The translations under genes and the position numbers were made by a program. A stretch of DNA of 32,000 nt, taken from Candidatus Methanoperedens sp. (GTDB taxonomy: Archaea > Halobacteriota > Methanosarcinia > Methanosarcinales > Methanoperedenaceae). This document shows, one piece after another, positions 10,941-32,000 of the stretch. Location of the stretch: the NCBI GenBank assembly GCA_041494705.1, contig JBGQBI010000003.1:180001-212000 (forward strand), given 5' to 3'. The number at the start of each line of letters is the position of its first letter. Positions within the stretch are counted from its first letter, which is position 1. The notes under the pieces are model-generated. The model was not told the DNA's origin. It saw nothing but the letters and a program-made list of their open reading frames with translations, and made no database searches.

Positions 10941-11861
10941 TCAGGAAGTCACAAAGTCAATTTGATAGTACGAATTATTTATTTTAACATAACAATTGCC
11001 GTTTTTCTCATTTGAATTACATTTTTTCTGGTAAACCAGAATATCTCGAAGTGCGTTCCATTCCTCTCTTGGAACTGGTTGGCCATGATATCCGTTTCCT
11101 TTGACAGCCTCTGCAAAAATTGGAAATCTATTAATTTCTTCAGTATTCATGACCACAAAAAATTCAGCATCATTAACTTTCGAAATACTATATCCCACGT
11201 ATTGACTGTTTGTTAACGCAAGACCAAACATAAGTAATATCGAGATTGCTGAGATAATTTTTCCAACTCTCATAAAAGTATGTTTAAATCCATTTTTGCT
11301 TGTATCACTCGTGCCATAAATGTAATAAAATCCAGAGGTGATAAGTCCTCCGAGAATTATAAGAGAGAATAAATTAGAAAAAAATCCTATTAAAGAAGGT
11401 AACACTCCAATATATTTATTTTCCAATACAATAAAATATTGCTGAAAAACTGAAATCAATATCGCTGCAAGCACAATTCCGATGTATAAAATGATAGTTG
11501 TTTTATTGATTTTCTTTTCTGAAGCAGCACGGGCCATTAAAAAAACAGCTAATATAATTCCTGGAAGAAATATCATGAAGGGATTTAAATTTAAAGGGAC
11601 AATTCCACTATACCCGACTATCCCAACAAGAATACCACTAACAACACCTGAAGCCCCGAGTTCCAGTTCTTTATTCCATAATAGTCCTGTATAAATGCCA
11701 AAAATGCCCCATATTAGTGCGATAGGCAAAGCACTCATTATATCAGAAGGAACCTTAAACGGATTTAAAAAAATAATCAACATAAACAGGACAAACCCAA
11801 TTACACTACTGAATATTAATCCTACTGCCCCATGCAAGAAATATTTAATACGGTTGTCCAT
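10941..11861 (-). CDS. Polytopic membrane protein, unknown function
   Basis: 306-aa ORF in a visibly AT-rich stretch. It has about 6-7 hydrophobic segments followed by a ~90-aa soluble tail. I recognise no motif. Confidence 0.6.
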   Translation of the reverse strand: MDNRIKYFLHGAVGLIFSSVIGFVLFMLIIFLNPFKVPSDIMSALPIALIWGIFGIYTGLLWNKELELGASGVVSGILVGIVGYSGIVPLNLNPFMIFLPGIILAVFLMARAASEKKINKTTIILYIGIVLAAILISVFQQYFIVLENKYIGVLPSLIGFFSNLFSLIILGGLITSGFYYIYGTSDTSKNGFKHTFMRVGKIISAISILLMFGLALTNSQYVGYSISKVNDAEFFVVMNTEEINRFPIFAEAVKGNGYHGQPVPREEWNALRDILVYQKKCNSNEKNGNCYVKINNSYYQIDFVTS

Positions 11862-12014
11862 ATTGTTAACTCCTCCTAACTTATTTCAAATATTAACAAC
11901 CTCCATTGTATTAATATTTTCTTGCCATTTTTTATTAGAATTTAAACCGATACCGGAATATTAATTTGTTTCTGAATATACCTTCAAGTTTTTCAATTTC
12001 ACAATTATTCTATT

Positions 12015-12175
12015 GAGCGCCAAGATGCGCGCCGTACTAACCCCGTCCCTCCCCTGTTGCGCCCCACCCACGCGCCCCTCCCCGCTGGCAGACCCGGCGC
12101 GTGCCACATGCGCGTAGGCGGACAGGTGCGGAGAACACAATCAAATGCGGTGCGCACGACCCTGAAGGATTCAGA
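12015..12175. other. GC-rich block with seven C-tracts (G-quadruplex/i-motif prone); possible structured RNA
   Basis: Runs of 3-4 C at about 12041, 12047, 12051, 12062, 12067, 12075 and 12080. These are followed by a G-rich half with ccacgcgcc/ggcgcgtg(c) complementarity. Both overlapping ORFs translate to low-complexity R/P/G strings. Confidence 0.4.
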
Positions 12176-12220
12176 ACAGGTCAGCACATGTTCAGCCGAA
12201 TACGCTTGCATTGAATTAAA

Positions 12221-12243
12221 TTTAAATATATGTTTAAACATAT
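12221..12243 (+). promoter_or_regulatory. vapBC promoter with overlapping 16-bp perfect palindrome (putative operator)
   Basis: The TATA-like tttaaatata (12221-12230) is centred ~26 nt before the vapB ATG at 12252, which fits a leaderless mRNA. The palindrome atatgtttaaacatat (12228-12243) overlaps it. Confidence 0.5.
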
Positions 12244-12251
12244 GTTTACTT

Positions 12252-12467
12252 ATGACAGCCAAGACCATAACCATACGCGGAGATATTTACAAAATGCTCC
12301 TCTCGATAAAGGGAGCAAACGAGAGCTTCAGCAATTTTTTTGAACGGCTCGTAAAATCCCGAAAAAATATTGATAAACTCAAAGAATTGAGAGGCTCTGT
12401 TGAATTCAGTAATAAAGAAGCTCTTTTGAAAGAGTTATCTGATAAAAGAAAGGAGATAAGGTATTGA
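12252..12467 (+). CDS. vapB: VapB-type antitoxin (archaeal short antitoxin family)
   Basis: 71 aa from an internal ATG. MTAKTITIRGDIYKMLLSIKGANESFSNFFERL resembles the archaeal putative-antitoxin family found upstream of PIN genes. Its stop overlaps the PIN gene start (TTGA). Confidence 0.7.
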   Translation: MTAKTITIRGDIYKMLLSIKGANESFSNFFERLVKSRKNIDKLKELRGSVEFSNKEALLKELSDKRKEIRY

Positions 12468-12841
12468 TCCTTGCTGATACTGATGTTCTTATTGAAATTT
12501 TCGATAAGAACTCAAAGAAAGGGGCAGCCGCTTTGCAGAGAATCGAGGACGCTGGAGAGGACATTTCCCTCACTTCACTGAATCTGCATGAAATCCTGTA
12601 TGGTATTTATAAATATGCTGATAAGCAAAAATCCGAGAGAATAATGCTGCTTGAGGTTGTGGATTTCACCAAGGATGATGCAGCTCTCTCTGCAAAACTT
12701 GAAGTAAAAGCAGAGGAAAAAGGGAATAAGATTCCCAGATTTGATTCAATGATCGCAGCAGTTGCCATAAATCGGGGTTTCAAATTATTCACTTTTAATA
12801 AAGACCACTTTGAAGTTTTTGAAGAACTGGAACTGTTTTAA
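12464..12841 (+). CDS. vapC: PIN-domain ribonuclease toxin VapC
   Basis: 125 aa with N-terminal ILADTDVLIE (first PIN acidic residue), later E/D positions (HEILYG, FDSMIAA) and typical length. TTG start preceded by AAGGAG. Confidence 0.8.
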   Translation: MILADTDVLIEIFDKNSKKGAAALQRIEDAGEDISLTSLNLHEILYGIYKYADKQKSERIMLLEVVDFTKDDAALSAKLEVKAEEKGNKIPRFDSMIAAVAINRGFKLFTFNKDHFEVFEELELF

Positions 12842-24112: not shown

Positions 24113-24184
24113 GCCCCGATGGGGTAGCGGATATCCTTTGAGATTGCGGATCTTAAGACCTGGGTTCAAGTCCCAGTCGGGGCG
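24113..24184 (+). tRNA. tRNA-Arg (anticodon GCG)
   Basis: Hand fold: acceptor GCCCCGA/TCGGGGC, anticodon stem TGAGA/TCTTA with loop TTGCGGA, T-arm CTGGG TTCAAGT CCCAG, discriminator G. Confidence 0.85.
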
Positions 24185-24439
24185 CTTAATAATCGTAAAA
24201 TCCCGTCGATATATTTAATACCTAATATATCTTAAAGCTATTGTTTTAAGGCTACTGACAATGGTTTTAATATCAATGAAAAGAGCATATTTATAAGAGC
24301 AAATCTTATAATATTCGATAATCAACGAAAAGCCTTTCGACAGTTCTTGGCTTTACGATTTCACTTTTATAAAAATCCTATGCTTTGCGAAGTTTGAAAA
24401 TTCGATATGCTGCATTGTTGTGGTGAAAAACTCACCACC

Positions 24440-24706
24440 CATTTATACAACCTACTAGTCCCGCTCACGCCAGCCTGTGGTCACCTGCGCCACGCTGCCG
24501 GCGCTTCGCTTCATCCGGCAGCGTGTGAAGCCTCCTAGAACGCTCCGCAAGGACGTCCTTAACAGTCGTTTGACGACGTTATCAAGATTGCCCCTTACTG
24601 CGGTAAGTGGCTGGGTACGAAGTGGTAGTGCGCCCTACAGCGCTAGAATATCCCTCCGGGACGTTCTTAGTATCGCGCTTGAAGGATGTGGGTGTTTTTT
24701 TACCCA
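24440..24706 (+). ncRNA. GC-rich structured block, candidate ncRNA (strand tentative)
   Basis: Strongly GC-rich inside AT-rich DNA. Perfect 11-bp stem cacgctgccgg/ccggcagcgtg (24490-24500/24514-24524). Long-range helix ctagaacgctcc (24534-24545) with ggacgttcttag (24658-24669). Hairpins at 24564-24576, 24593-24606 and 24629-24642. Terminal hairpin gtgggt-gTTTTTTT-acccac (24687-24706). TATA-like catttataca at 24438-24447. The overlapping 142-aa ORF is not protein-like. Confidence 0.4.
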
Positions 24707-24854
24707 CAACGTTAGAAAAACCGACAATTTTTATTCTTTTAATTTTTGTACATTGTATATTATTGTTGTATGTTTATCTATTTCAGTGATCCATTTAATA
24801 GTTTTTAATAAAAGTCCTTGCGCAATTATTATAGCAGTAATTAAACAGGGGCAA

Positions 24855-24977
24855 AATGCCCCTTTACAAACTGCTACAACAATCCTCTTTTATATTCTAA
24901 TCTAAACCCGAACTCCTCATATCAGAACGCGCGCCGCTTGTTAGCGTGCCCTCCGGGATACTTAACTTATAGCTTTT
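24855..24977 (+). ncRNA. Candidate small RNA gene A (paralog of B)
   Basis: The conserved box aattattatagcag (24824-24837) lies 31 nt upstream of the conserved 34-nt core aatgcccctttacaaactgctacaacaatcctct (24855-24888). A GC-rich 3' segment follows (..gccctccggga..), then a TTTT run at 24974-24977. Confidence 0.4.
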
Positions 24978-25119
24978 CTAAAATGCCTGGCAAAAATAGC
25001 TCTGTTCCTTTTGGTTTGTATAAATTTAAAGTTGACTTTATCCAAGGAGCCACTTTGTAAATACCTCTTTTACGAACCCCGATATCATCCTCGATGCATT
25101 CCAATAATCCTTTTTTCAT
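24967..25119 (-). CDS. Hypothetical 50-aa protein (hand-translated)
   Basis: MKKGLLECIEDDIGVRKRGIYKVAPWIKSTLNLYKPKGTELFLPGILEKL. The TATA box atataaaaacc (25147-25157, + coordinates) lies ~30 nt upstream of the ATG. The composition is not that of a typical shadow ORF. Confidence 0.4.
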   Translation of the reverse strand: MKKGLLECIEDDIGVRKRGIYKVAPWIKSTLNLYKPKGTELFLPGILEKL

Positions 25120-25146
25120 CAAGAAAACTCGTTATTGTACATTTGT

Positions 25147-25183
25147 ATATAAAAACCTGGTCAATTTATCCTATTTGGGATAA
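25147..25183 (-). promoter_or_regulatory. Promoter (TATA) plus upstream palindrome for the 50-aa ORF
   Basis: The 11-mer atataaaaacc is identical to the one upstream of the spike-like gene (30518-30528). The palindrome ttatcc-N6-ggataa (25166-25183) lies just upstream on the transcribed strand. Confidence 0.45.
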
Positions 25184-25389
25184 GATTTTGTTGTTTTTGG
25201 ATAATATAAGAGCTAGATAACTCCCTGTTCCAGCTACACCAGGATAGTCAATTCATCCTTCGCTTATCGATGTACATTTAGACAATTATTAAAGCACTAA
25301 ATTTACCAAGGGTTGCTAACCGAAAGATTACTTTCGCTTTGACACTTCCAGCACTAAAAATCATTATTAATCGTTATGTTATACGATAT

Positions 25390-25569
25390 CTATTTGTTTT
25401 CAAGTGTAGTTATGCGCCGTTCTTGGGTTTTAAGTTCAACCTTTATCTCTTTCACATCATCAATAACATTGTCCAGCTTTTGAAGTATTCTTCCAGCTTT
25501 AAGGCTAATACCTACAATTGTTACCACTACACCAAAAATAGGAATCAGGTCAAAAGAGGTTAAAGTCAA
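25390..25569 (-). CDS. Hypothetical 59-aa membrane/coiled-coil protein (hand-translated, TTG start)
   Basis: MTLTSFDLIPIFGVVVTIVGISLKAGRILQKLDNVIDDVKEIKVELKTQERRITTLENK. One TM helix plus an amphipathic helix. Its start overlaps the stop of the upstream 37-aa ORF (TTGA). Confidence 0.35.
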   Translation of the reverse strand: MTLTSFDLIPIFGVVVTIVGISLKAGRILQKLDNVIDDVKEIKVELKTQERRITTLENK

Positions 25570-25679
25570 GGTATCTTCCCAACAAGCTTACCAATTATCC
25601 AAAATAGAACAATCGCTATGCCTAACCATATCAAGATATCTGTATAATCGAAATTACGATGTTTTTCTATTGTGGCCAT
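25566..25679 (-). CDS. Hypothetical 37-aa single-TM peptide (hand-translated)
   Basis: MATIEKHRNFDYTDILIWLGIAIVLFWIIGKLVGKIP. A polar N-terminus is followed by one TM helix and a basic end. Confidence 0.35.
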   Translation of the reverse strand: MATIEKHRNFDYTDILIWLGIAIVLFWIIGKLVGKIP

Positions 25680-25765
25680 AATCTATACTTGAATTTCATG
25701 CTATTTAACTTTTAGTTTCTTTGGTTAATTTGGGAAATTATTATAACAGCTTTCTACCAGGAACA

Positions 25766-25878
25766 GAATGCCCCTTTACGAGCTGCTACAAAAATCCTCT
25801 CCAGTACATCAATTAGATCAGCTACAGCTTTTCAAACTATCAATTGCGCTGCCTTCAGGCAGCCCTTCGGGAAGTTTT
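25766..25878 (+). ncRNA. Candidate small RNA gene B (paralog of A)
   Basis: Box aattattataacag (25735-25748) sits at the same 31-nt distance from the core aatgcccctttacgagctgctacaaaaatcctct (25766-25799; 31/34 identical to A). The 3' hairpin gctgcc/ggcagc (25847-25862) is followed by ccc-ttc-ggg and TTTTT (25874-25878). Confidence 0.45.
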
Positions 25879-25912
25879 TACAAAAAAAGTATTATATTGG
25901 TATATGTTATAA

Positions 25913-26386
25913 ATGAACAATATGGTATTTGATGAAGAGAATTTTAAAAAAGGAGTGGCCTTCGAAAGAAAAATTATCGGACTTTTCAATCTTCAAACTT
26001 TTGCTATCCATGATTGGACCAGAGATATATGGCGTAAACACGGAGACATTAAAGTCGAATCAGACTCAAACCCGGATTTGGTGATACGCCATAAACCATC
26101 AAATGAAAAATTCGCTATAGAATGTAAATTTCGCTCAGAAATTTACCAAAATGCAATCAGATTTGATTACCGAAATAAAATAGATAATTATATAAAATAT
26201 TCTCAAGATTCTAATATCCCTGTGTTCGTAGTTATTGGAATAGGAAAAGATATTTTGAACATTGATAGAATGTTCTGCATACCATTAGAAGAGGCAACAT
26301 TAACAAATATCAAAGCAGATGTTTATGAAAGATTTGAAAGAAAACCTGATTTAAATTTTAGGTGGATGTATGACCAATTAACCTAG
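25913..26386 (+). CDS. PD-(D/E)xK nuclease-fold protein (restriction-endonuclease/Mrr-like catalytic core)
   Basis: 157 aa with FERKI ... NPDLVIRHKPSNEKFAIECKFRS, which gives the E ... PD ... E-x-K arrangement. The TATA-like gtattatatt lies ~20 nt before the ATG, which fits a leaderless mRNA. Confidence 0.6.
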   Translation: MNNMVFDEENFKKGVAFERKIIGLFNLQTFAIHDWTRDIWRKHGDIKVESDSNPDLVIRHKPSNEKFAIECKFRSEIYQNAIRFDYRNKIDNYIKYSQDSNIPVFVVIGIGKDILNIDRMFCIPLEEATLTNIKADVYERFERKPDLNFRWMYDQLT

Positions 26387-26483
26387 TGTTTGAACCGAAA
26401 AGAAAAAAATGTAGCCGATCCAAGTCAAGAAGATCTGAACAGTGGACCATAAAGCCAAGAGAAAATTATTTCTTACGAAATAA

Positions 26484-26726
26484 TTAACCTTTTTTAATGA
26501 GGATATCGCCATTATCCGCTTCATAAAATACAATGATATCGCCTTCATCAGCTTCGAGCTTTTTAGAGATATCAGATATCAAAGCTATTTTTTTGCCTTT
26601 TGTAACCTTAGCAGTCCCTATAATCCTCATAAGTCTTATAAACACCCAAAGATTTATAAACATTATGGTACTTATAGATACTATAGAGATTAAAAACACT
26701 ATAATCTCTAAAGGAGAAATAAACAT
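26484..26726 (-). CDS. AbrB/SpoVT-like domain protein (start uncertain; possibly 26630)
   Basis: The C-terminal 45 aa, KVTKGKKIALISDISKKLEADEGDIIVFYEADNGDILIKK, fit the AbrB/MazE looped-hinge pattern. The longest ORF adds a hydrophobic N-terminus and overlaps the divergent gene start by 2 nt, so an internal Met (M22 or M33) may be the real start. Confidence 0.5.
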   Translation of the reverse strand: MFISPLEIIVFLISIVSISTIMFINLWVFIRLMRIIGTAKVTKGKKIALISDISKKLEADEGDIIVFYEADNGDILIKKG

Positions 26727-26949
26727 GGAATATATAGAAAACCCAGAAATGGTAAAAATGGAAATCGAGATCTCTAAAGAACAAGCAGAATTCGCAGAAT
26801 TCTATGCTAAAATATGCAATATGGAAACTGGACGCATGCTAGGAATAATCCTGGCAACCCAGTTAAACACATATAAGAAAAAAGTCTTTGAACTGCCATT
26901 GATCACGATAGAAAGAAGCAAGAAAACTAAGAAAAACTGGCAGATTTAA
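26725..26949 (+). CDS. Hypothetical 74-aa protein
   Basis: Starts at an internal ATG of the 138-aa ORF, preceded by AAGGAG at 26711-26716. MEYIENPEMVKMEIEISKEQAEFAEFYAKICN... is predicted helical. T-rich runs follow the stop. Confidence 0.45.
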   Translation: MEYIENPEMVKMEIEISKEQAEFAEFYAKICNMETGRMLGIILATQLNTYKKKVFELPLITIERSKKTKKNWQI

Positions 26950-27207
26950 TCTGCCTTCCTTTTTTTCATTTTTTCGCTTAACTGCTTTCAGTATTCAGCA
27001 TTCTTTTTTTCATACAGCCTTCTAAACTGGATCATTACCACTAGGCCCCCGAAACCCAGATAACAAAAATGAGGACAATGATAAAAACACCAAGGAACTC
27101 ACCAACTTTATCTTCTATTTTCATCTCTAGGACTCATGACATGCCGAAAAAAAACAACCACATGATCTTAGATCACAGAACAAAATAAAAATCTGAAACT
27201 CAATACA

Positions 27208-27231
27208 CCAGAACCTTTTTTTAGGTTCTGG
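27208..27231. terminator. Bidirectional terminator-like hairpin between convergent units
   Basis: ccagaacc-ttttttta-ggttctgg is a perfect 8-bp stem. It has a T7 run on the + strand and T5/T4 runs 12-25 nt downstream on the - strand. Confidence 0.5.
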
Positions 27232-27271
27232 CTTAAATATTTCAATTGCTACATAAGGCTTTGTATCCATT

Positions 27272-27466
27272 TCACTTTTTAAAAATAAACTGTTTTAATC
27301 CTAGGAATACAAGTCCGAAGCCTATCATACTGAACCCGGAAGCTAACATCAGGCCTCCGATCAACCCGCTGTCCATACCTGCAATGATAACCATTACGCC
27401 ACCAACAATCAATACGAAAACACCGGCATTATATAATTTCTCAGATCGGTCCGTGTTATCTTTCAT
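27272..27466 (-). CDS. 64-aa protein with two Gly-rich TM helices (possible virion/membrane structural protein)
   Basis: MKDNTDRSEKLYNAGVFVLIVGGVMVIIAGMDSGLIGGLMLASGFSMIGFGLVFLGLKQFIFKK. Start chosen at the ATG that overlaps the upstream stop (ATGA); the ORF is open to 27529. Confidence 0.55.
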   Translation of the reverse strand: MKDNTDRSEKLYNAGVFVLIVGGVMVIIAGMDSGLIGGLMLASGFSMIGFGLVFLGLKQFIFKK

Positions 27467-27855
27467 ACCGAACCCTCCGTCGGAATCTTTGCTACAAGCC
27501 AATCTACTGTGAACAATGAAAAGACCCATCCAATTGGACGTAGGAAAAACAAATTGATAAAAGTATACGCATCAGGACTAATTGGATTAAACATGCTATA
27601 TACCACTCCCTTTACAATTAACCAGGGAGAAAGATCACTGGTAACTTCTAACCCTAAGTCAAAAAAACTCCCAAAAGGTAAGATTGAAACAATATGGCCA
27701 ATATAAGGCAATTTGTCAATCAAACCAACCACATTAAACAGAGGTTGGCCGCTACCGAGAGACCAGAAATATGATAAAGCATACATTGTGCTAAATACAA
27801 ATACAGCCGAAACAAACGAAGACTGGAACGGTTTAATTACTGTAATTTCAGACAT
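27463..27855 (-). CDS. 130-aa polytopic membrane protein, unknown function
   Basis: About 3-4 hydrophobic segments. The ATG at 27855 lies 1 nt after the stop of the upstream 28-aa ORF (TAATATG). Confidence 0.55.
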   Translation of the reverse strand: MSEITVIKPFQSSFVSAVFVFSTMYALSYFWSLGSGQPLFNVVGLIDKLPYIGHIVSILPFGSFFDLGLEVTSDLSPWLIVKGVVYSMFNPISPDAYTFINLFFLRPIGWVFSLFTVDWLVAKIPTEGSV

Positions 27856-27856
27856 A

Positions 27857-27943
27857 TTAGTCAACACTTCCTTTATACTTTTTAAATTCTTTATTCAGTT
27901 CTTGTTGGACAAGACTATTCACATCATTTTCTTTTGTTTCCAT
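27857..27943 (-). CDS. 28-aa hydrophilic peptide, first cistron of the small-protein operon (hand-translated)
   Basis: METKENDVNSLVQQELNKEFKKYKGSVD. The only support is tight coupling to the next cistron. Confidence 0.25.
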   Translation of the reverse strand: METKENDVNSLVQQELNKEFKKYKGSVD

Positions 27944-28189
27944 TTTATCATATCCTTTATATTTTTATCATATATTCAGTCTTTTTTTTAAAAACTGGAT
28001 AATATTATAAACTCTAAAATTGTCTAGTTCATAATAGCTTTGATTTGAGTATGTGTAACTATGAGTATAGTAACAAACAACAGCAAACAAAAAATTACCA
28101 AAACTAATTTGTTCTTGAAAAGATTTACAAAAGAAATTCAACCACCTCCTAAAAGTATTTTTAAAACTTGATAGTGCTCAACCACAATA

Positions 28190-30400
28190 TCACTCCGAAC
28201 CCAATGAAACTTCCTTCCCATATTTCCATTTTACACCCATCAGTACCACAATAATGACTACTACAAAAGGGGTATAAGGGGCCCATAACCCGACTATAGC
28301 CTCGAGGATTGCAAGAATAATACCTGTAAGCTCAATTGTTTTCCCTCCTTTTCCCGAAACCGAATATATACATAATATCCATAGTATAACACCCCAGAAC
28401 GCAGGCATAACCATGAAGCCTAATAGATTATTACTCATTGTGGAAGCTGCCTGGCTATTCGGAGTGGAAGTAGGAGTTGGCGTACCTGTTGGAGTTACCG
28501 CTCCTGAAACTGTTACTTGCTGTCCCATCTGGATATTATTAGATAAATCAAAAAGAAGGATCCCATAAACCCCGGCTTCATTAAAAGTCATAGTAAGCGT
28601 TTTTGTGCCTACTGATAAATTAAATCTTTCAGAATACCCGCCACTTGCTAAACCGTTTGCCTGAACAATAATATATGCCCCTATATTCGGAGTTGTTGCA
28701 GTTACTAAAACAGTACCGCCGACAATAACATTCAAAGGAGAAACATAAAGCCCATATCCAGCCTGATTTATTGAACTCAAACTAAAATTATCAGTAGCAA
28801 GAATAGATGAAGTTCCATTAGGATATTGAACCATAAGCCGGATAGAATTATTCCCGGGCTGCCAATAACCGGATACTCCGACATCAGGTTTATTATTGAT
28901 AACAAGTCCGAAAAGCCCAGCGTCTGTTACCCCGACGGTTGTCATGCCATTACCGAAATATTTTAGTGTCTCGGCTCCGATATCGATATTATAAACATCA
29001 ACATAAAAAACTCCCTGCCGTGAAAACACAGAGCCCTTAATCGAATAGTTGCCATCTATGAGGTCAGTTAGATAATACTGCCCTCCTGAACCGCCAGTCC
29101 CATTTTTTGCAATTAATTTAATACTGCTCGTTGAAAAATTATTCGTAGGTGTTCCGCCAATGTCAAAAGAAGTTTTTATCGTTCTGACTGCAAAAATCTG
29201 GCCATTTACAGAACCGTCTTTCAGATAGACATTATAGACCCCAACACGAGAAAATGAAATGTTTATACTCCCGTCAGTATCCATTATAGCTTCACGATTT
29301 TCTCTCACTTCAACACCATTATCTATAAAATACCATTCAAGAGAACCTATGATATTCGCTTTTCCGATATGATACGTAGCAGTTACATTTTGTTTGATTA
29401 GAGCAATTGAAGGAATGTTCATGTATGATGTGCTTTCAGCCCTTACAGTCATTGTATCCGTAGAAACTATAGAGCAGATATAAAAAGCGCATTTTTGTAA
29501 ATTTGCAGTGTAAACTCCAGCAAAATCATTGTAAGGATTATACGAACCTGTCTGAGTTCCAATATCTATTGCAAATAAAATATTTGATTCAGGAACAGGA
29601 CTTATTGTGTCATATACTGACCAGGAACATGGGAATTTAGACCACGGCCCGCATGACCAGGTATTCCAGTCAGTATCAGAAATAGACCATGATACCGGGG
29701 TATTAGATTTAACAATAGTATCATTTGAAGCCCATGATATTGATGTTGAAATTGAAGGGGAAACAGAAGATGCAATTATATTATCAAAATAAACACTCTG
29801 TGCAGCCCCACCAACGCCTATCTGTATTCTATCAGATGTTGAAATATCATAAGCGATAACAACATTCTGAGTATTAATAATCGTACCATTGTTGGGATAC
29901 GAAACAGTTATATTTATTGTACTCCCTGTTTTTAAAACCTTAAATCTAATCCATGTATTTACCCATGGCATTATAGCCCACGGCACATAACTGGTTGCTT
30001 CTCCCATCAATGCAACATTATAATAACTCCCCGTATCAGTATGTAAACCGATAGCCAGACCTTTTGAAACAGAAGTTCCAAAAGTTGTAGTAGCGTTTGA
30101 ACCTATCGTTACATACGCATCTGAAGTTACCCCACTAAAAGTTTTAAAATTCACATCAAATTGTAAATAATTATTTGGAGAACTCAGAACCCATAACCGA
30201 CTATCTACACCCCCACTTTGAACATAGGCGGCCTGTGTCAAATCCCAGCTGGAATTTGACGGTACACTCCATGCAGATGGATTAATTACAGTACAGCAAT
30301 TAACCGTACCATCATTAAAATTCAAAGTTAAAGCGCTTGCAGAGCTTGAAAAAGCTATCAAAACAATGAGCGCAAATAAAAGTAATTTAATTTGTTTCAT
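28190..30400 (-). CDS. Secreted, membrane-anchored surface (spike/adhesin-like) glycoprotein
   Basis: Signal peptide MKQIKLLLFALIVLIAFSSSASA from ATG 30400; the ORF is open to 30442. I hand-count about 14 N-x-S/T sequons. Composition is beta-rich and S/T/N/G/V-rich. The Thr/Pro linker PTGTPTPTSTP is followed by three C-terminal hydrophobic helices. Confidence 0.8.
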   Translation of the reverse strand: MKQIKLLLFALIVLIAFSSSASALTLNFNDGTVNCCTVINPSAWSVPSNSSWDLTQAAYVQSGGVDSRLWVLSSPNNYLQFDVNFKTFSGVTSDAYVTIGSNATTTFGTSVSKGLAIGLHTDTGSYYNVALMGEATSYVPWAIMPWVNTWIRFKVLKTGSTINITVSYPNNGTIINTQNVVIAYDISTSDRIQIGVGGAAQSVYFDNIIASSVSPSISTSISWASNDTIVKSNTPVSWSISDTDWNTWSCGPWSKFPCSWSVYDTISPVPESNILFAIDIGTQTGSYNPYNDFAGVYTANLQKCAFYICSIVSTDTMTVRAESTSYMNIPSIALIKQNVTATYHIGKANIIGSLEWYFIDNGVEVRENREAIMDTDGSINISFSRVGVYNVYLKDGSVNGQIFAVRTIKTSFDIGGTPTNNFSTSSIKLIAKNGTGGSGGQYYLTDLIDGNYSIKGSVFSRQGVFYVDVYNIDIGAETLKYFGNGMTTVGVTDAGLFGLVINNKPDVGVSGYWQPGNNSIRLMVQYPNGTSSILATDNFSLSSINQAGYGLYVSPLNVIVGGTVLVTATTPNIGAYIIVQANGLASGGYSERFNLSVGTKTLTMTFNEAGVYGILLFDLSNNIQMGQQVTVSGAVTPTGTPTPTSTPNSQAASTMSNNLLGFMVMPAFWGVILWILCIYSVSGKGGKTIELTGIILAILEAIVGLWAPYTPFVVVIIVVLMGVKWKYGKEVSLGSE

Positions 30401-30517
30401 CAATACATCATCCCCGAAATCCCCATTGCAATAATGATGCAACTTGTCAGTTCAAGAAAAAGATTTCTTACCTTTAAAAATTTCCAAGTTTCCATCAAGG
30501 AAGTAAAAAATCTTCAC

Positions 30518-30587
30518 ATATAAAAACCCATAATTTTTGTGGATAATTTATCCCATCAAATGATGGGAAAAAGCTATTACTTTTCAA
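30518..30587 (-). promoter_or_regulatory. Promoter/operator module upstream of the spike-like gene (repeat copy 1)
   Basis: Contains the TATA atataaaaacc (30518-30528), tggataa (30540-30546) and the perfect palindrome tcccatca-aa-tgatggga (30551-30568). About 37/48 identity to 31534-31581. Confidence 0.5.
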
Positions 30588-31515
30588 CTGAAAAAGGGTT
30601 TTTCAAGGCATGAACAGCCCTCTTTTTCTTCCTTGGAACAGCCACATAACGCATCGTACTTGAAATGCTTTCATGCCTCATCAGTTCCTGGATCATTTTG
30701 ATATCCACGTCCTGATCAAAAAGATATGTAGCAAATCCGGCACGTAAACGATGAGTGCCCTTATTGAAATATTTTTTAACAACCCTCAGATATCCAAGGT
30801 AGCCCAGAGCCTTACCTTTACAAGCCCCCCTATGTGAATACCACAGCCTTTTACCATTTGGATAACGAGAAAAATACCACTCTTTAAGCATTTTTGTAGT
30901 TTCAGGATCCATGAAAACATAACCGTCTTTTGCCCCCTTGCCTGAAGGAATGTAAATTTCCCCGGTATCCCAATCTATATCCTCCTGGGGATTACAGGCA
31001 AGAGATTCAGAAGCACGCCAACCGGTAACGTACGCCGTACGGATTATAAAATAATTCCTTAATTCTATTTCATAATCGTTCCCCTTACGAAGCTCTTTGA
31101 ACATCTCGTCAAGGGTTTTCATCACAGTATCACAGGAAATGAAATCTATTTCCTGCTTAGGAACCCGAGGAGATTCAAGCTTCCGGGTTGGATCCAAAGT
31201 CAATGAATCATCTTTGCACAAAAACCCGAAAAATACCTTCAGATATGAAACGTAAATACTCATTGTACTGGGTTTTAAGCCCTTCAGGGCAAGAAAATTA
31301 ACATAATCCTCTATTATCTCACAGGTAACAACTCTCATGTCATGGAAAGCATCCTGATGATTTTTAGAAAGCCATTCAGCGAACATAAGGCAAAACCACT
31401 TTCTTGAACGAATACTCTTTTTTGAGAATACCCTTCTTAGCATTGAAGCCTCATATTTTTGAATAGCCTTTTCAAATGTTAAACGCATATTTTTACTCCG
31501 AAATCCAAACAGCAT
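30577..31515 (-). CDS. int: Tyrosine recombinase/integrase (XerC/D-like); start possibly at 31488
   Basis: Catalytic pattern: TGWRASE (Arg I), HRLRAGFATYL (H-x-x-R), LMRHESISSTMRYV (His ... Tyr), plus an N-terminal SAM-like core-binding region. A TATA-like ctttatat overlaps the first ATG, which favours Met10. Confidence 0.88.
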   Translation of the reverse strand: MLFGFRSKNMRLTFEKAIQKYEASMLRRVFSKKSIRSRKWFCLMFAEWLSKNHQDAFHDMRVVTCEIIEDYVNFLALKGLKPSTMSIYVSYLKVFFGFLCKDDSLTLDPTRKLESPRVPKQEIDFISCDTVMKTLDEMFKELRKGNDYEIELRNYFIIRTAYVTGWRASESLACNPQEDIDWDTGEIYIPSGKGAKDGYVFMDPETTKMLKEWYFSRYPNGKRLWYSHRGACKGKALGYLGYLRVVKKYFNKGTHRLRAGFATYLFDQDVDIKMIQELMRHESISSTMRYVAVPRKKKRAVHALKNPFSVEK

Positions 31516-31581
31516 ATAAAGCCCAGTGTTTTCTGGATAGATTTTCCCATCATTTAATGGGAAAAAGCAGTTACATTTAAT
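31513..31581 (-). promoter_or_regulatory. Promoter/operator module upstream of the integrase gene (repeat copy 2)
   Basis: Contains tggatag (31534-31540), the palindrome ttcccat-N6-atgggaa (31544-31563) and the shared aaaaagc..ttac tail. The TATA-like element lies at 31513-31520. Confidence 0.5.
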
Positions 31582-31610
31582 ACCAAAAATACCGTTACAT
31601 ACAAAATATT

Positions 31611-31829
31611 ATGAAATTATCAGAAATGCTTAAAAATACTGCCTATGCGGTTATGTTTGGGTTCTTCGGGCTTATAATTGGTATCTGGATTGCCGATCTT
31701 CTATCCAACCTGATATTTAAAAATTTGGAACGGGTCACCACTATTTACATATCTTTAGTAATAATAGTATTGGTAATCGTATCGGCTTCCATACTTGGCT
31801 TTACCAAAGGCAAGAATTTACTTGAATAA
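31611..31829 (+). CDS. Hypothetical 72-aa protein with two TM helices
   Basis: AVMFGFFGLIIGIWIADLL and IYISLVIIVLVIVSASILGF. The gene is AT-rich and may still belong to the element. Confidence 0.5.
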   Translation: MKLSEMLKNTAYAVMFGFFGLIIGIWIADLLSNLIFKNLERVTTIYISLVIIVLVIVSASILGFTKGKNLLE

Positions 31830-31934: not shown

Positions 31935-32000
31935 ATGAACATCATTTTACTCGGTCCCCCTGGCGCGGGAAAAGGCACGCAGGCCAAGAAAATATCAGAG
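31935..32000 (+). CDS. adk: Adenylate kinase, 5' end (truncated by window edge)
   Basis: MNIILLGPPGAGKGTQAKKISE is the canonical Adk P-loop N-terminus. Confidence 0.9.
   Translation, partial: MNIILLGPPGAGKGTQAKKISE

What the first reader, a model, noticed from the sequence alone, without database searches (positions are those of the whole stretch)
24185..31610. tRNA-Arg-adjacent ~7.4 kb AT-rich element with virus-like content but no recognisable replication or packaging gene
**Seen.**
- Composition changes sharply right after tRNA-Arg(GCG), with an intact tyrosine recombinase at the far end.
- Nearly all genes sit on the minus strand, in the order int, a 736-aa secreted TM-anchored glycoprotein, then an operon of small membrane proteins. 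A nuclease, an AbrB-like protein and small RNAs follow.
- The transcription units share an element-specific promoter/operator.

**Inference.**
- This layout (integrase + spike-like protein + small hydrophobic structural proteins in 7-8 kb) resembles small enveloped or spindle-shaped archaeal proviruses such as pleolipovirus- or fusellovirus-like elements.
- However, I see no Rep, NTPase or ATPase.
- It could therefore be a new minimal provirus or vesicle-forming element, or a decayed one.
Basis: partly seen in the sequence, partly recalled or inferred. Interest (0 to 1): 0.72.

Follow-up and report, generated by a model that had tools for sequence, protein, structure and literature searches.

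The report
Capsid-less remnant of archaeal spindle-virus provirus
A 7.4-kb mobile element sits next to a tRNA-Arg gene in a methane-oxidising archaeon (Candidatus Methanoperedens); it is a cut-down relative of small spindle-shaped-virus-like proviruses not recorded in the databases and papers searched, and it keeps the integrase and a large surface adhesin but has no capsid, assembly or replication genes, so it is most likely defective or helper-dependent.

Summary
- A 7,362-bp AT-rich segment (36% vs 45% GC) is inserted 28 bp downstream of tRNA-Arg(GCG). It is bounded by a 10-bp direct repeat, ATTTAATACC (24213-24222 and 31575-31584).
- Two related Candidatus Methanoperedens genomes lack it at the same site.
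- It encodes an intact tyrosine recombinase and a 736-aa secreted, membrane-anchored multi-β-sandwich protein. Small membrane proteins, a weak PD-(D/E)XK-like protein and a weak AbrB-like protein follow. No frame has a Walker A motif.

**What it is related to.**
- The 736-aa protein defines a rare family of 53 representatives among 1.8 billion proteins.
- All six best homologues lie on small mobile-element contigs or proviruses that also carry a His1/SSV1-type spindle-virus capsid gene.
- Contig L086 shares four genes with the window: the integrase, the large protein, the conserved 134-aa protein and the 157-aa protein. It also carries about 5.5 kb of extra structural genes, including the capsid gene.

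**Verdict.**
- The window element has no capsid homologue, none of that structural block and no replication gene.
- It is best read as a deletion-type derivative of a spindle-shaped-virus-like provirus lineage absent from the databases searched. It is either defective or helper-dependent, not a self-sufficient minimal virus.
- A pleolipovirus affinity is not supported.

The parts
24113..24185 (+). Host tRNA-Arg(GCG). The integration site lies 28 bp downstream of it, not inside the gene.
   Evidence: ARAGORN and Rfam tRNA at 55.3 bits. The gene is conserved in L001-L003.
24213..24222 (.). attL core: ATTTAATACC, the left copy of the flanking direct repeat.
   Evidence: Read directly from the sequence. 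Only two good copies exist in the window. The uninterrupted site is seen in L001 and L002.
24376..24725 (.). GC-rich (53-59%) structured island, possibly a non-coding RNA of about 300 nt. Strand and function are unknown. A TTTTATAAAA box lies at 24366-24375 and a T7 run at about 24693.
   Evidence: Fold z-scores are -3.1 (+) and -4.3 (-). There is no Rfam match at E<=5, no plausible ORF, and no homologue in any fetched locus.
24818..24888 (.). Copy 1 of a 71-nt direct repeat (79% identical to the copy at 25730-25800). It contains the hairpin AGGGGCAnnnTGCCCCT.
   Evidence: the repeat finder family D2; terminator-like hairpin.
25390..25679 (-). Two overlapping small membrane-protein genes of 37 aa (25566-25679) and 59 aa (25390-25569). 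They form a cassette also found elsewhere in a chromosomal setting.
   Evidence: ORFs and TM segments. Window 25388-25718 is 91% identical in DNA to L093 7117-7447, which lies among ordinary host genes.
25730..25800 (.). Copy 2 of the 71-nt direct repeat, between the 37-aa gene and the 157-aa gene.
   Evidence: the repeat finder family D2.
25913..26386 (+). 157-aa protein, a putative PD-(D/E)XK-fold nuclease with the motif PDLVI...FAIECK. It is shared with related contig L086.
   Evidence: Sub-threshold Pfam hits PDDEXK_15 (E 0.0037) and Mrr_cat_2 (E 0.0097). The L086 homologue scores E 1.4e-18 and keeps the motif. No PDB or NCBIfam hit.
26484..26726 (-). 80-aa protein with an N-terminal TM segment and a weak AbrB/MazE-like C-terminus. 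It is a candidate regulator by inference only.
   Evidence: Pfam MazE_antitoxin E 0.06, below threshold; TM prediction.
26725..26949 (+). 74-aa protein of unknown function. The public gene call gives a 94-aa version.
   Evidence: ORF and exact look-up. No family hit.
27272..27466 (-). 64-aa protein with two TM helices. It has the shape of a spindle-virus capsid protein but is not related to one.
   Evidence: TM prediction. hhalign against the capsid alignment gives probability 0.1%, and the capsid HMM scores it below zero. JGI/IMG labels it 'predicted phage tail protein'.
27463..27867 (-). 134-aa hydrophobic protein. It is the conserved partner of the large protein, encoded directly downstream of it in relatives.
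   Evidence: Homologues lie immediately 3' of the large gene in L086 (E 3e-27), L090 (4e-20), L082 (4e-13) and L085 (4e-12).
28190..30400 (-). 736-aa secreted protein: signal peptide, an N-terminal β domain, a chain of β-sandwich (Ig/FN3-like) domains, and 3-4 C-terminal TM helices. It is a presumed host-attachment protein, analogous to a tail spike.
   Evidence: 53 family representatives, the best at 38% identity and E 2e-90. AlphaFold2 model with a 42-sequence alignment, mean pLDDT 78.7. Foldseek gives only generic multi-Ig and phage tail-fibre matches with TM-score below 0.2. No Pfam, PHROG, NCBIfam or PDB hit.
30520..30595 (-). Promoter/operator block upstream of the 736-aa gene: palindrome TCCCATCAAATGATGGGA (30551-30568) and a TTTATAT box (30520-30527, minus strand).
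   Evidence: Repeat D1 and inverted repeat I1, sequence, palindrome count.
30577..31488 (-). Tyrosine recombinase/integrase, 303 aa. It is intact and is not split by integration.
   Evidence: Pfam E 8e-20, PHROG_1 E 5.5e-36, NCBIfam XerA-like at 111 bits, below the 220 cutoff. The R...HxxR...H...Y residues are visible in the alignment. Homologues of 47-83% identity sit at the ends of Methanoperedens proviruses.
31514..31589 (-). Promoter/operator block upstream of the integrase gene: palindrome TCCCATCATTTAATGGGA (31545-31562) and a TTTATAT box (31514-31521). It overlaps the attR core.
31575..31584 (.). attR core: ATTTAATACC, the right copy of the flanking direct repeat.
   Evidence: Host sequence resumes at 31572 relative to L001 and at 31564 relative to L002.

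Best explanation
**What it is.** Window 24223-31584 is a 7.36-kb integrative element in a Candidatus Methanoperedens chromosome.

**How it got there.**
- Its own XerA-like tyrosine recombinase inserted it at a 10-13-bp core (ATTTAATACC) 28 bp downstream of tRNA-Arg(GCG).
- The integrase gene stays intact. This is unlike SSV-type integrases, which are split on integration.

**Which lineage it belongs to.**
- It belongs to a lineage of small temperate elements of Methanoperedens and related archaea that is absent from the phage/virus, plasmid and IMG/VR collections searched.
- The hallmark of that lineage is an integrase gene, then a 700-1,500-aa secreted multi-β-sandwich protein with a C-terminal TM anchor, then a protein of about 130 aa.
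- Fuller members add a His1/SSV1-type two-helix major capsid protein and further structural genes. Their other modules vary (D5-type primase, PrimPol or ParB-like). They are therefore predicted to be spindle-shaped viruses.

**What is missing here.**
- The window copy keeps the integrase, both att sites, the attachment-protein module, the 157-aa nuclease-like gene and a duplicated operator-plus-TATA block in front of the integrase gene and the large gene.
- It lacks the capsid gene, the roughly 5.5-kb structural block and any replication gene.
- It therefore cannot make virions or replicate on its own. It is a deletion/replacement derivative: a defective provirus that may still be able to excise.

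**Shown and inferred.**
- Shown: the insertion, its ends, the empty sites, the homologies and the absence of a capsid homologue.
- Inferred: spindle morphology of the relatives, the attachment role of the large protein, operator function, and loss rather than primary absence of the structural block.
For: **Insertion and ends.**
- Flanks are 93% identical to L001 and about 70-90% identical to L002, and both lack the 7.4-kb segment. In L002 the tRNA is followed within about 20 bp by the right flank.
- The direct repeat occurs only at the two ends.
- GC is 36% in the element against 45% in the host.

**The large-protein family and its neighbours.**
- 53 representatives were found among 1.84 billion proteins.
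- All six best homologues lie on small contigs of unannotated genes with mobile-element markers: D5-type primase plus resolvase, PrimPol plus methyltransferase, an integrase, or ParB.
- The L081 neighbour matches Pfam His1_capsid at E 3.7e-10 and 40 bits, above the 27-bit cutoff.
- A capsid HMM built from L081-L084 finds a capsid-like gene in L086 (E 4e-6) and L085 (E 4e-4). The extended HMM finds one in provirus L090/L091 (E 2e-13). Three of seven members match His1_capsid at E up to 1 in Pfam (best 3.7e-10).

**Closest fuller relative sharing the gene set.**
- L086 shares the integrase (61% identity), the large protein, the 134-aa protein and the 157-aa protein, in the same order and orientation. 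It has nine further genes between the 134-aa and 157-aa homologues, including the capsid-like gene.
- L090 repeats the L086 order next to tRNA-Ile.

**Absences in the window.**
- The best capsid-HMM E-value is 0.5-0.8, and hhalign gives probability 0.1% for the only two-helix candidate.
- There is no trace of the L086, L090 or L087 structural genes at E<5.
- No Walker A motif and no Rep domain were found.

**Conserved regulatory layout.** A duplicated operator-plus-TATA block with element-specific sequence is also present in L086 and L087.
Against: - The integrase (303 aa) and the 736-codon ORF are intact in AT-rich DNA, both palindromic operators are perfect, and the att repeats are intact. 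This argues against long decay and fits a recent deletion or a maintained, functional short element.
- The 1.1 kb between the 134-aa and 157-aa genes is not empty. It holds small ORFs with no homologues in the relatives, so this is replacement, not simple deletion.
- Capsid proteins of this type are short and fast-evolving, so a very divergent one could escape profile searches.
- No second copy of the short form and no excised form was found, so neither decay nor activity is shown directly.
- Spindle morphology of the relatives is inferred only from the capsid gene.
Confidence: 0.6

Rival explanations
1. It is a helper-dependent integrative satellite. The element is kept on purpose without capsid or replication genes. 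It excises with its own integrase and is packaged and spread by a co-resident full-length spindle-type virus of the same lineage. It supplies its own attachment protein, in the manner of pSSVx/pSSVi with SSV helpers.
For: - The integrase, the large ORF, the att sites and the operators are all intact.
- It shares four genes with capsid-encoding relatives that could act as helpers.
- There is published precedent for small capsid-less integrated archaeal elements proposed as satellites (PMC4158269), and for the fusellovirus satellite pSSVx, which spreads with an SSV2 helper (PMC9608457, PMC1635272).
Against: - It has no replication protein, whereas pSSVx and, from memory, pSSVi encode their own.
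- No helper provirus lies within the 32-kb window.
- No excised form was detected, though none was specifically searched for.
Confidence: 0.15
2. It is an autonomous minimal virus or vesicle-forming element. The 64-aa two-helix protein and other small membrane proteins would form a novel shell or envelope, and host enzymes would replicate the DNA.
For: - The 64-aa protein has the two-hydrophobic-helix, basic-tail shape typical of spindle-virus capsid proteins.
- At 7.4 kb the element is within my recollection of the smallest pleolipovirus genomes (about 7-8 kb; not checked here).
- The large membrane-anchored surface protein is intact.
Against: - The 64-aa protein shows no detectable relation to the capsid family.
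- Every sampled relative carries a canonical capsid gene plus several more structural genes.
- There is no NTPase, Rep or packaging function.
- There is no match to pleolipovirus or any archaeal virus record.
Confidence: 0.08
3. It is a mosaic island, not one element. The right 5.7 kb (integrase to the 157-aa gene) is the provirus remnant. The left 1.7 kb (GC-rich island, 51-aa ORF, the 37/59-aa cassette between 71-nt repeats) was added separately at the same hotspot. This is compatible with the best explanation.
For: - The 37/59-aa cassette is 91% identical in DNA to a chromosomal site in L093 that has no other element genes.
- 71-nt direct repeats bracket 24889-25729.
- The site is a hotspot: L001 carries a HicAB cassette there.
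- The GC-rich island differs sharply in composition.
Against: - Only two att cores exist, at the outer ends, so there is no internal junction.
- L086 also continues with small same-strand genes beyond its 157-aa homologue.
Confidence: 0.3
4. It is an ordinary cellular adhesin or S-layer paralogue island with a stray integrase, and is not of viral origin.
For: - Foldseek matches of the large protein are generic multi-Ig proteins, including an S-layer protein.
- The L090 homologue has weak S-layer and CarboxypepD_reg Pfam hits.
Against: - Empty sites and flanking repeats show an insertion.
- All the best homologues sit in mobile-element contigs next to capsid genes.
- The family is very rare, with 53 representatives in 1.84 billion proteins.
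Confidence: 0.02

Closest known systems
Fuselloviridae (SSV1 and relatives)
   Same: - A temperate element integrating at or near a tRNA-Arg gene.
- Relatives encode a VP1/His1-type two-helix capsid protein.
- A large (700-800 aa) terminal-fibre/tail-spike-type protein with TM helices (SSV1 VP4/C792). Split versions occur in some genomes, as in L087 here (PMC9608457).
   Different: - No sequence or fold-level match to SSV VP4 or the SSV19 tail.
- No DnaA-like B251 ATPase or other fusellovirus core genes.
- The integrase is XerA-like and stays intact, rather than being an SSV-type integrase split by integration.
- The window copy has no capsid gene at all.
- The host is a mesophilic methane-oxidising archaeon.
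Halspiviridae (His1) and metagenomic spindle-shaped viruses of methanogens (contigs C1359 and C1697, PMC9796341)
   Same: - The capsid genes of the relatives match Pfam His1_capsid.
- Genomes are small (about 8-16 kb).
- Hosts are Methanosarcinales-type archaea.
   Different: - His1 and C1697 are linear genomes with protein-primed polymerases and no integrase.
- The present lineage is integrative, with variable replication modules.
- No homologue of the 736-aa protein was found in phage/virus records.
pSSVx / pSSVi satellites and the capsid-less small integrated elements proposed as satellites (PMC4158269)
   Same: - Small size.
- No capsid gene.
- Genes shared with a capsid-encoding virus lineage.
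- An integrase and tRNA-Arg association in pSSVi (from memory, not checked here).
   Different: - Those satellites encode their own replication protein, and this element encodes none.
- This element keeps a large attachment-type protein, which the satellites do not.
- Helper dependence is untested here.
Pleolipoviridae (HRPV-1, HHPV-1, SNJ2)
   Same: - A genome of 7-17 kb.
- A spike protein with a signal peptide and a C-terminal anchor.
- Small membrane proteins.
- Some members integrate at tRNA genes.
   Different: - The conserved NTPase is absent.
- There is no VP3 or VP4 homology.
- There is no structural match to the solved spike.
- The relatives carry spindle-type capsid genes instead.

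Membership tests
Site-specifically integrated mobile element (tyrosine-recombinase type) | Encodes a tyrosine recombinase with the catalytic R...HxxR...H/W...Y residues | tested here: met
   Pfam Phage_integrase E 8e-20. TGWRASE, HRLRA, MRHES and RY are conserved across four homologues.
Site-specifically integrated mobile element (tyrosine-recombinase type) | Flanking direct repeats (att core) at both ends | tested here: met
   ATTTAATACC lies at 24213-24222 and 31575-31584. These are the only two good copies in the window.
Site-specifically integrated mobile element (tyrosine-recombinase type) | Unoccupied site in related genomes | tested here: met
   L002 has the tRNA-Arg followed directly by the right flank. 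L001 lacks the element and has a HicAB cassette instead.
Site-specifically integrated mobile element (tyrosine-recombinase type) | Excised circular form or attP junction | not tested
   Reads are not available.
Spindle-shaped archaeal viruses (Fuselloviridae/Halspiviridae type) | His1/SSV1-type major capsid protein with two hydrophobic helices | tested here: not met
   The window has no hit: best HMM E 0.5-0.8, hhalign probability 0.1%, and none in the whole 32 kb. Relatives L081-L086 and L090/L091 have one.
Spindle-shaped archaeal viruses (Fuselloviridae/Halspiviridae type) | Large tail-spike or terminal-fibre protein homologous to SSV VP4 | tested here: inconclusive
   A 736-aa membrane-anchored multi-β-sandwich protein is present. 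It has no sequence hit to PDB, including the SSV19 tail, and only generic Foldseek hits. This is analogy, not shown homology.
Fuselloviridae | Core DnaA-like AAA ATPase (B251), and an SSV-type integrase gene split on integration | tested here: not met
   No frame has a Walker A motif. The integrase ORF is intact and lies inside the element.
Pleolipoviridae | Conserved NTPase (VP8-like) plus VP3/VP4-like membrane and spike proteins | tested here: not met
   No NTPase motif. No PHROG or Pfam hit for any ORF other than the integrase. No pleolipovirus spike appears among the top structural matches.
Virus satellite (pSSVx/pSSVi-like) | Lacks capsid genes but shares genes with a capsid-encoding helper lineage | tested here: met
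   There is no capsid gene. The integrase, the large protein, and the 134-aa and 157-aa proteins are shared with L086.
Virus satellite (pSSVx/pSSVi-like) | Own replication initiator | tested here: not met
   No Rep, primase, helicase or ATPase domain or motif was found.
Virus satellite (pSSVx/pSSVi-like) | Packaging and spread only in the presence of a helper virus | not testable with these tools
   This needs the complete host genome or metagenome, and culture or virome data.

The most novel reading that the evidence does not exclude
The element is a maintained, helper-dependent integrative satellite of a spindle-shaped virus lineage of Methanoperedens that is absent from the databases searched. 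It has given up capsid, assembly and replication genes but keeps its own integrase, regulatory switch and host-attachment protein. It could then ride in a helper's capsid while setting its own host range. To my knowledge this would be the first virus-satellite system in anaerobic methane-oxidising archaea, and an unusual satellite that brings an adhesin rather than a replicon.
Probability: 0.12. Interest if true: 0.7.

Novelty: new member of a known kind. Interest (0 to 1): 0.42.

Why it matters
- Methanoperedens archaea are important methane sinks. The mobile elements described for them so far are Borgs, mini-Borgs, plasmids and viruses of 40-94 kb (bioRxiv 10.1101/2023.08.02.551345).
- The work points to a separate, small lineage (at least 11-16 kb in the fuller members). 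It is integrative, carries a His1/SSV1-type capsid gene, and is found in Methanoperedens chromosomes and related metagenome contigs. It has no match in IMG/VR, phage or plasmid collections.
- The window copy is a stripped-down member of that lineage.
- It gives a defined att site, an integrase and an operator pair that could be tested or used as genetic tools. It also raises a concrete question: is this defective or a satellite?
- As an object in itself it is a fairly ordinary kind of thing, an incomplete provirus at a tRNA-linked hotspot.

Tried and rejected
**Searches that found nothing.**
- Word-indexed homologue searches with the 736-aa protein and with a 21-sequence alignment returned nothing, probably because low-complexity words saturated the candidate list. 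The full HMMER scan was needed.
- IMG/VR scans with the protein and with a 6-sequence alignment found no relatives.
- Phage/virus and plasmid collections gave no DNA or protein match.
- The first metagenome scan with the integrase alignment chose poor N-terminal patterns and found nothing. The second found only four short loci.

**Structure.**
- The single-sequence structure model was useless (pLDDT 35). The alignment-based model was usable (pLDDT 78.7).
- Foldseek returned only generic multi-Ig matches.

**Tests that came back negative.**
- The 64-aa two-helix protein as a divergent capsid protein: rejected.
- The GC-rich island as a known RNA: no Rfam hit. As a homologue of a GC-rich spot in L098: the alignment showed no meaningful similarity.
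- Enrichment of glycosylation sequons: not significant.
- The 157-aa protein against PDB and NCBIfam: only noise.
- Remnants of the structural genes of L086, L087 or L090 in the element: none at E<5.


Full report
**1. Host and setting.**
- The gene just upstream of the tRNA encodes a methylguanine methyltransferase-type DNA-binding protein (Pfam E 4.6e-29).
- It is 93% identical to one in a Candidatus Methanoperedens genome bin (L001), and 67% and 62% identical to those of two other Methanoperedens genomes (L002, L003).
- The rest of the window holds ordinary archaeal housekeeping genes, such as HisA-like, a tRNA synthetase and an RNA polymerase subunit.
- tRNA-Arg(GCG) lies at 24113-24185.

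**2. The insertion is real and its ends can be fixed.**
- By blastn, window 23601-24185 matches L001 9976-10563 and window 31572-32000 matches L001 11481-11909.
- In L002 the tRNA (ending about 6915) is followed by the right flank from 6938.
- Both relatives therefore lack the 7.4-kb segment. L002 is essentially an empty site. L001 has an unrelated 0.9-kb HicA/HicB cassette at the same spot.
- Reading the junctions gives an unbroken target of ...AATCCCxTCGATATATTTAATACCAAAAATACC....
- In the window the core ATTTAATACC occurs at 24213-24222 and 31575-31584 (13 bp with one mismatch). No other good copy exists.
- The element is thus 7,362 bp and lies 28 bp downstream of the tRNA, not inside it.
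- Its GC content is 36.2% against 44.7% for the host part of the window.
- The 72-aa membrane ORF at 31611-31829 and the adenylate kinase start at 31936 are host sequence.

**3. Gene content.**
- *Integrase.* The recombinase is intact and has the catalytic residues. Its real start is the ATG at 31488, giving 303 aa, as in its homologues and the public gene call.
- *The 736-aa protein.* It has a signal peptide and C-terminal TM helices. It has no Pfam, PHROG, NCBIfam or PDB match.
- *Its structure.* With a 42-sequence alignment, AlphaFold2 gives mean pLDDT 78.7. The model shows an N-terminal β domain, a chain of β-sandwich domains and 3-4 terminal helices. Foldseek returns only generic multi-Ig proteins and phage tail-fibre, FN3 or Big-1 proteins at TM-scores below 0.2. 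This fits an attachment protein but proves nothing more.
- *Downstream genes.* These are a 134-aa hydrophobic protein, a 64-aa two-helix protein and several very small ORFs of doubtful status. A 74-aa protein, an 80-aa protein with a weak AbrB/MazE-like end (E 0.06) and a 157-aa protein follow. The 157-aa protein has a PD...ExK motif and sub-threshold nuclease hits.
- *Absent functions.* No Walker A motif occurs in any frame.
- *Glycosylation.* N-glycosylation sequons are not enriched (14 against 10.9 +/- 2.9).

**4. Regulatory repeat.**
- A 76-nt repeat lies upstream of the integrase gene and of the 736-aa gene on the minus strand.
- Each copy holds a perfect palindrome, TCCCATCAnnnnTGATGGGA, followed by a TTTATAT box. 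These are the only two exact copies in the window.
- L086 and L087 have the same layout, with a duplicated block before the integrase gene and the next operon, but with their own sequences.
- This looks like an element-specific switch that controls integration and the structural operon together. Operator function is my inference. The binding protein is unknown; the 80-aa and 74-aa proteins are candidates.

**5. Relatives of the large protein.**
- A full HMMER scan of 1.84 billion representatives found 53 family members, mostly 670-890 aa. The best has 38% identity and E 2e-90.
- I looked up the genomic context of the six best.
- All lie on contigs of 4-16 kb made of small unannotated genes plus mobile-element markers:

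| Locus | Marker genes |
|---|---|
| L082 | D5-type primase, resolvase |
| L083 | PrimPol, methyltransferase |
| L085 | small integrase |
| L086 | integrase, ParB |

- In L081 a 65-aa neighbour matches Pfam His1_capsid at E 3.7e-10, 40 bits against a 27-bit cutoff.
- L082, L083 and L084 have obviously similar two-helix proteins.
- An HMM built from those proteins detects a capsid-like gene in L086 (E 4e-6) and L085 (E 4e-4). After extension it detects one in L090/L091 (E 2e-13).
- The 134-aa protein has homologues encoded directly after the large gene in L082, L085, L086 and L090.

**6. Relatives of the integrase.**
- Homologues of 47-83% identity sit at the ends of proviruses inside Methanoperedens-type chromosomes.
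- L087 (80% identity) has a large protein split into 169 and 537 aa.
- L090-L092 (63% identity) lie next to tRNA-Ile. Their order is integrase, a 1,571-aa expanded large protein, a 134-aa homologue, then genes of 428, 89, 112, 274, 217, 69 and 242 aa, then the capsid-like gene.
- L100 (47% identity; NCBI names its source Candidatus Methanoperedens sp.) has an 840-aa family member.
- L086 shows the same order as L090.

**7. What the window copy lacks.**
- With L086 it shares only the integrase, the large protein, the 134-aa protein and the 157-aa protein, in the same order and orientation.
- Between the last two, L086 has about 5.5 kb. This holds a 510-aa DUF2341-like secreted protein, membrane proteins of 96 and 108 aa, proteins of 286, 219 and 242 aa, the 132-aa capsid-like protein and a 214-aa protein.
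- The window has 1.1 kb there, with small ORFs that match nothing in the relatives.
- Capsid HMMs score nothing in the element (best E 0.5-0.8) or anywhere in the 32 kb.
- The only two-helix candidate is unrelated by hhalign (probability 0.1%).
- No replication gene is present, while relatives carry varied modules (primase, PrimPol or ParB-like).

**8. Interpretation.**
- The element belongs to a lineage of small integrative elements whose fuller members encode the signature capsid protein of spindle-shaped archaeal viruses. I infer that those members are temperate spindle-shaped viruses. This is not shown.
- The large protein is the positional and architectural counterpart of the fusellovirus tail spike VP4/C792. 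That protein also has TM helices, and split variants of it are known (PMC9608457). Homology is not demonstrated.
- The window copy cannot build a capsid or replicate by itself. I rate a deletion/replacement derivative (defective provirus) at about 0.6.
- Its intact integrase, intact 2.2-kb ORF in AT-rich DNA, perfect operators and intact att sites keep a helper-dependent satellite reading alive, at about 0.15. Capsid-less small integrated archaeal elements have been proposed as satellites before (PMC4158269).
- An autonomous minimal virus or vesicle-former is unlikely (about 0.08).
- A cellular adhesin island is essentially excluded.

**9. The left 1.7 kb.**
- It holds a 350-bp GC-rich island that folds better than shuffled controls on both strands (z -3.1 and -4.3). 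It has no Rfam match and no homologue in any locus I fetched.
- It also holds a 37/59-aa membrane-protein cassette that is 91% identical in DNA to a chromosomal site in another genome (L093).
- 71-nt direct repeats bracket 24889-25729.
- This part may have been added separately at what is clearly a hotspot. However, there is no internal att core.

**10. Comparison with what is known.**
- The Methanoperedens viruses described so far are 40-94 kb (bioRxiv 10.1101/2023.08.02.551345).
- Spindle-type contigs have been reported for Methanobacteriales and Methanosarcina from metagenomes (PMC9796341).
- A large archaeal provirus survey does not mention Methanoperedens in its main text (PMC13573593).
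- The lineage has no match in IMG/VR, the phage/virus collection or the plasmid collection.
- The lineage therefore appears new as a member of a known kind, and the window copy is an incomplete member of it.

Noticed in passing
window 24376-24725: A 350-bp island of 53-59% GC inside 36%-GC DNA. It folds more stably than shuffles on both strands (z -3.1 and -4.3). It has no credible ORF, no Rfam match and no homologue in any fetched locus. A TTTTATAAAA box lies just upstream on the + strand and a T7 run lies at its + strand end. It may be a novel element-borne non-coding RNA.
   Followed up: partly
window 25388-25718; L093 7117-7447: A two-gene cassette of tiny membrane proteins (37 and 59 aa, overlapping) is 91% identical in DNA to a site among ordinary chromosomal genes in another Methanoperedens-type genome. 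This suggests a small mobile or duplicated cassette. Its role is unknown.
   Followed up: partly
window 24818-24888 and 25730-25800: 71-nt direct repeats (79% identical), each with a GC hairpin (AGGGGCAnnnTGCCCCT in copy 1). They bracket the segment that holds the cassette and a 51-aa ORF. They could be terminators, promoters or the ends of a small insertion.
   Followed up: no
L001 10565-11470: The closest relative genome has a HicA/HicB toxin-antitoxin pair inserted between the same tRNA-Arg and the same att sequence. The site is therefore an insertion hotspot.
   Followed up: partly
L086 (GCA_028715625.1, JAQURL010000058.1): This 16.3-kb contig is the fuller relative that shares four genes with the window element. 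NCBI labels its bin Candidatus Margulisbacteria, a bacterial group, although the contig has an archaeal-virus-type capsid gene and a Methanoperedens-type integrase. It is probably mis-binned.
   Followed up: no
L087 10224-12404: In the provirus with the closest integrase (80% identity), the large protein is split into a 169-aa N-terminal gene and a 537-aa gene. This parallels the split VP4 tail-spike variants reported in some fuselloviruses.
   Followed up: partly
window 10941-12841: A second AT-rich patch (32% GC) holds a 306-aa protein with no Pfam match, followed by a VapB/PIN (VapC) toxin-antitoxin pair. It is another small accessory island, unrelated to the finding.
   Followed up: partly
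window 27272-27466: JGI/IMG annotates the 64-aa two-helix membrane protein as 'predicted phage tail protein'. Nothing I ran supports that name.
   Followed up: yes
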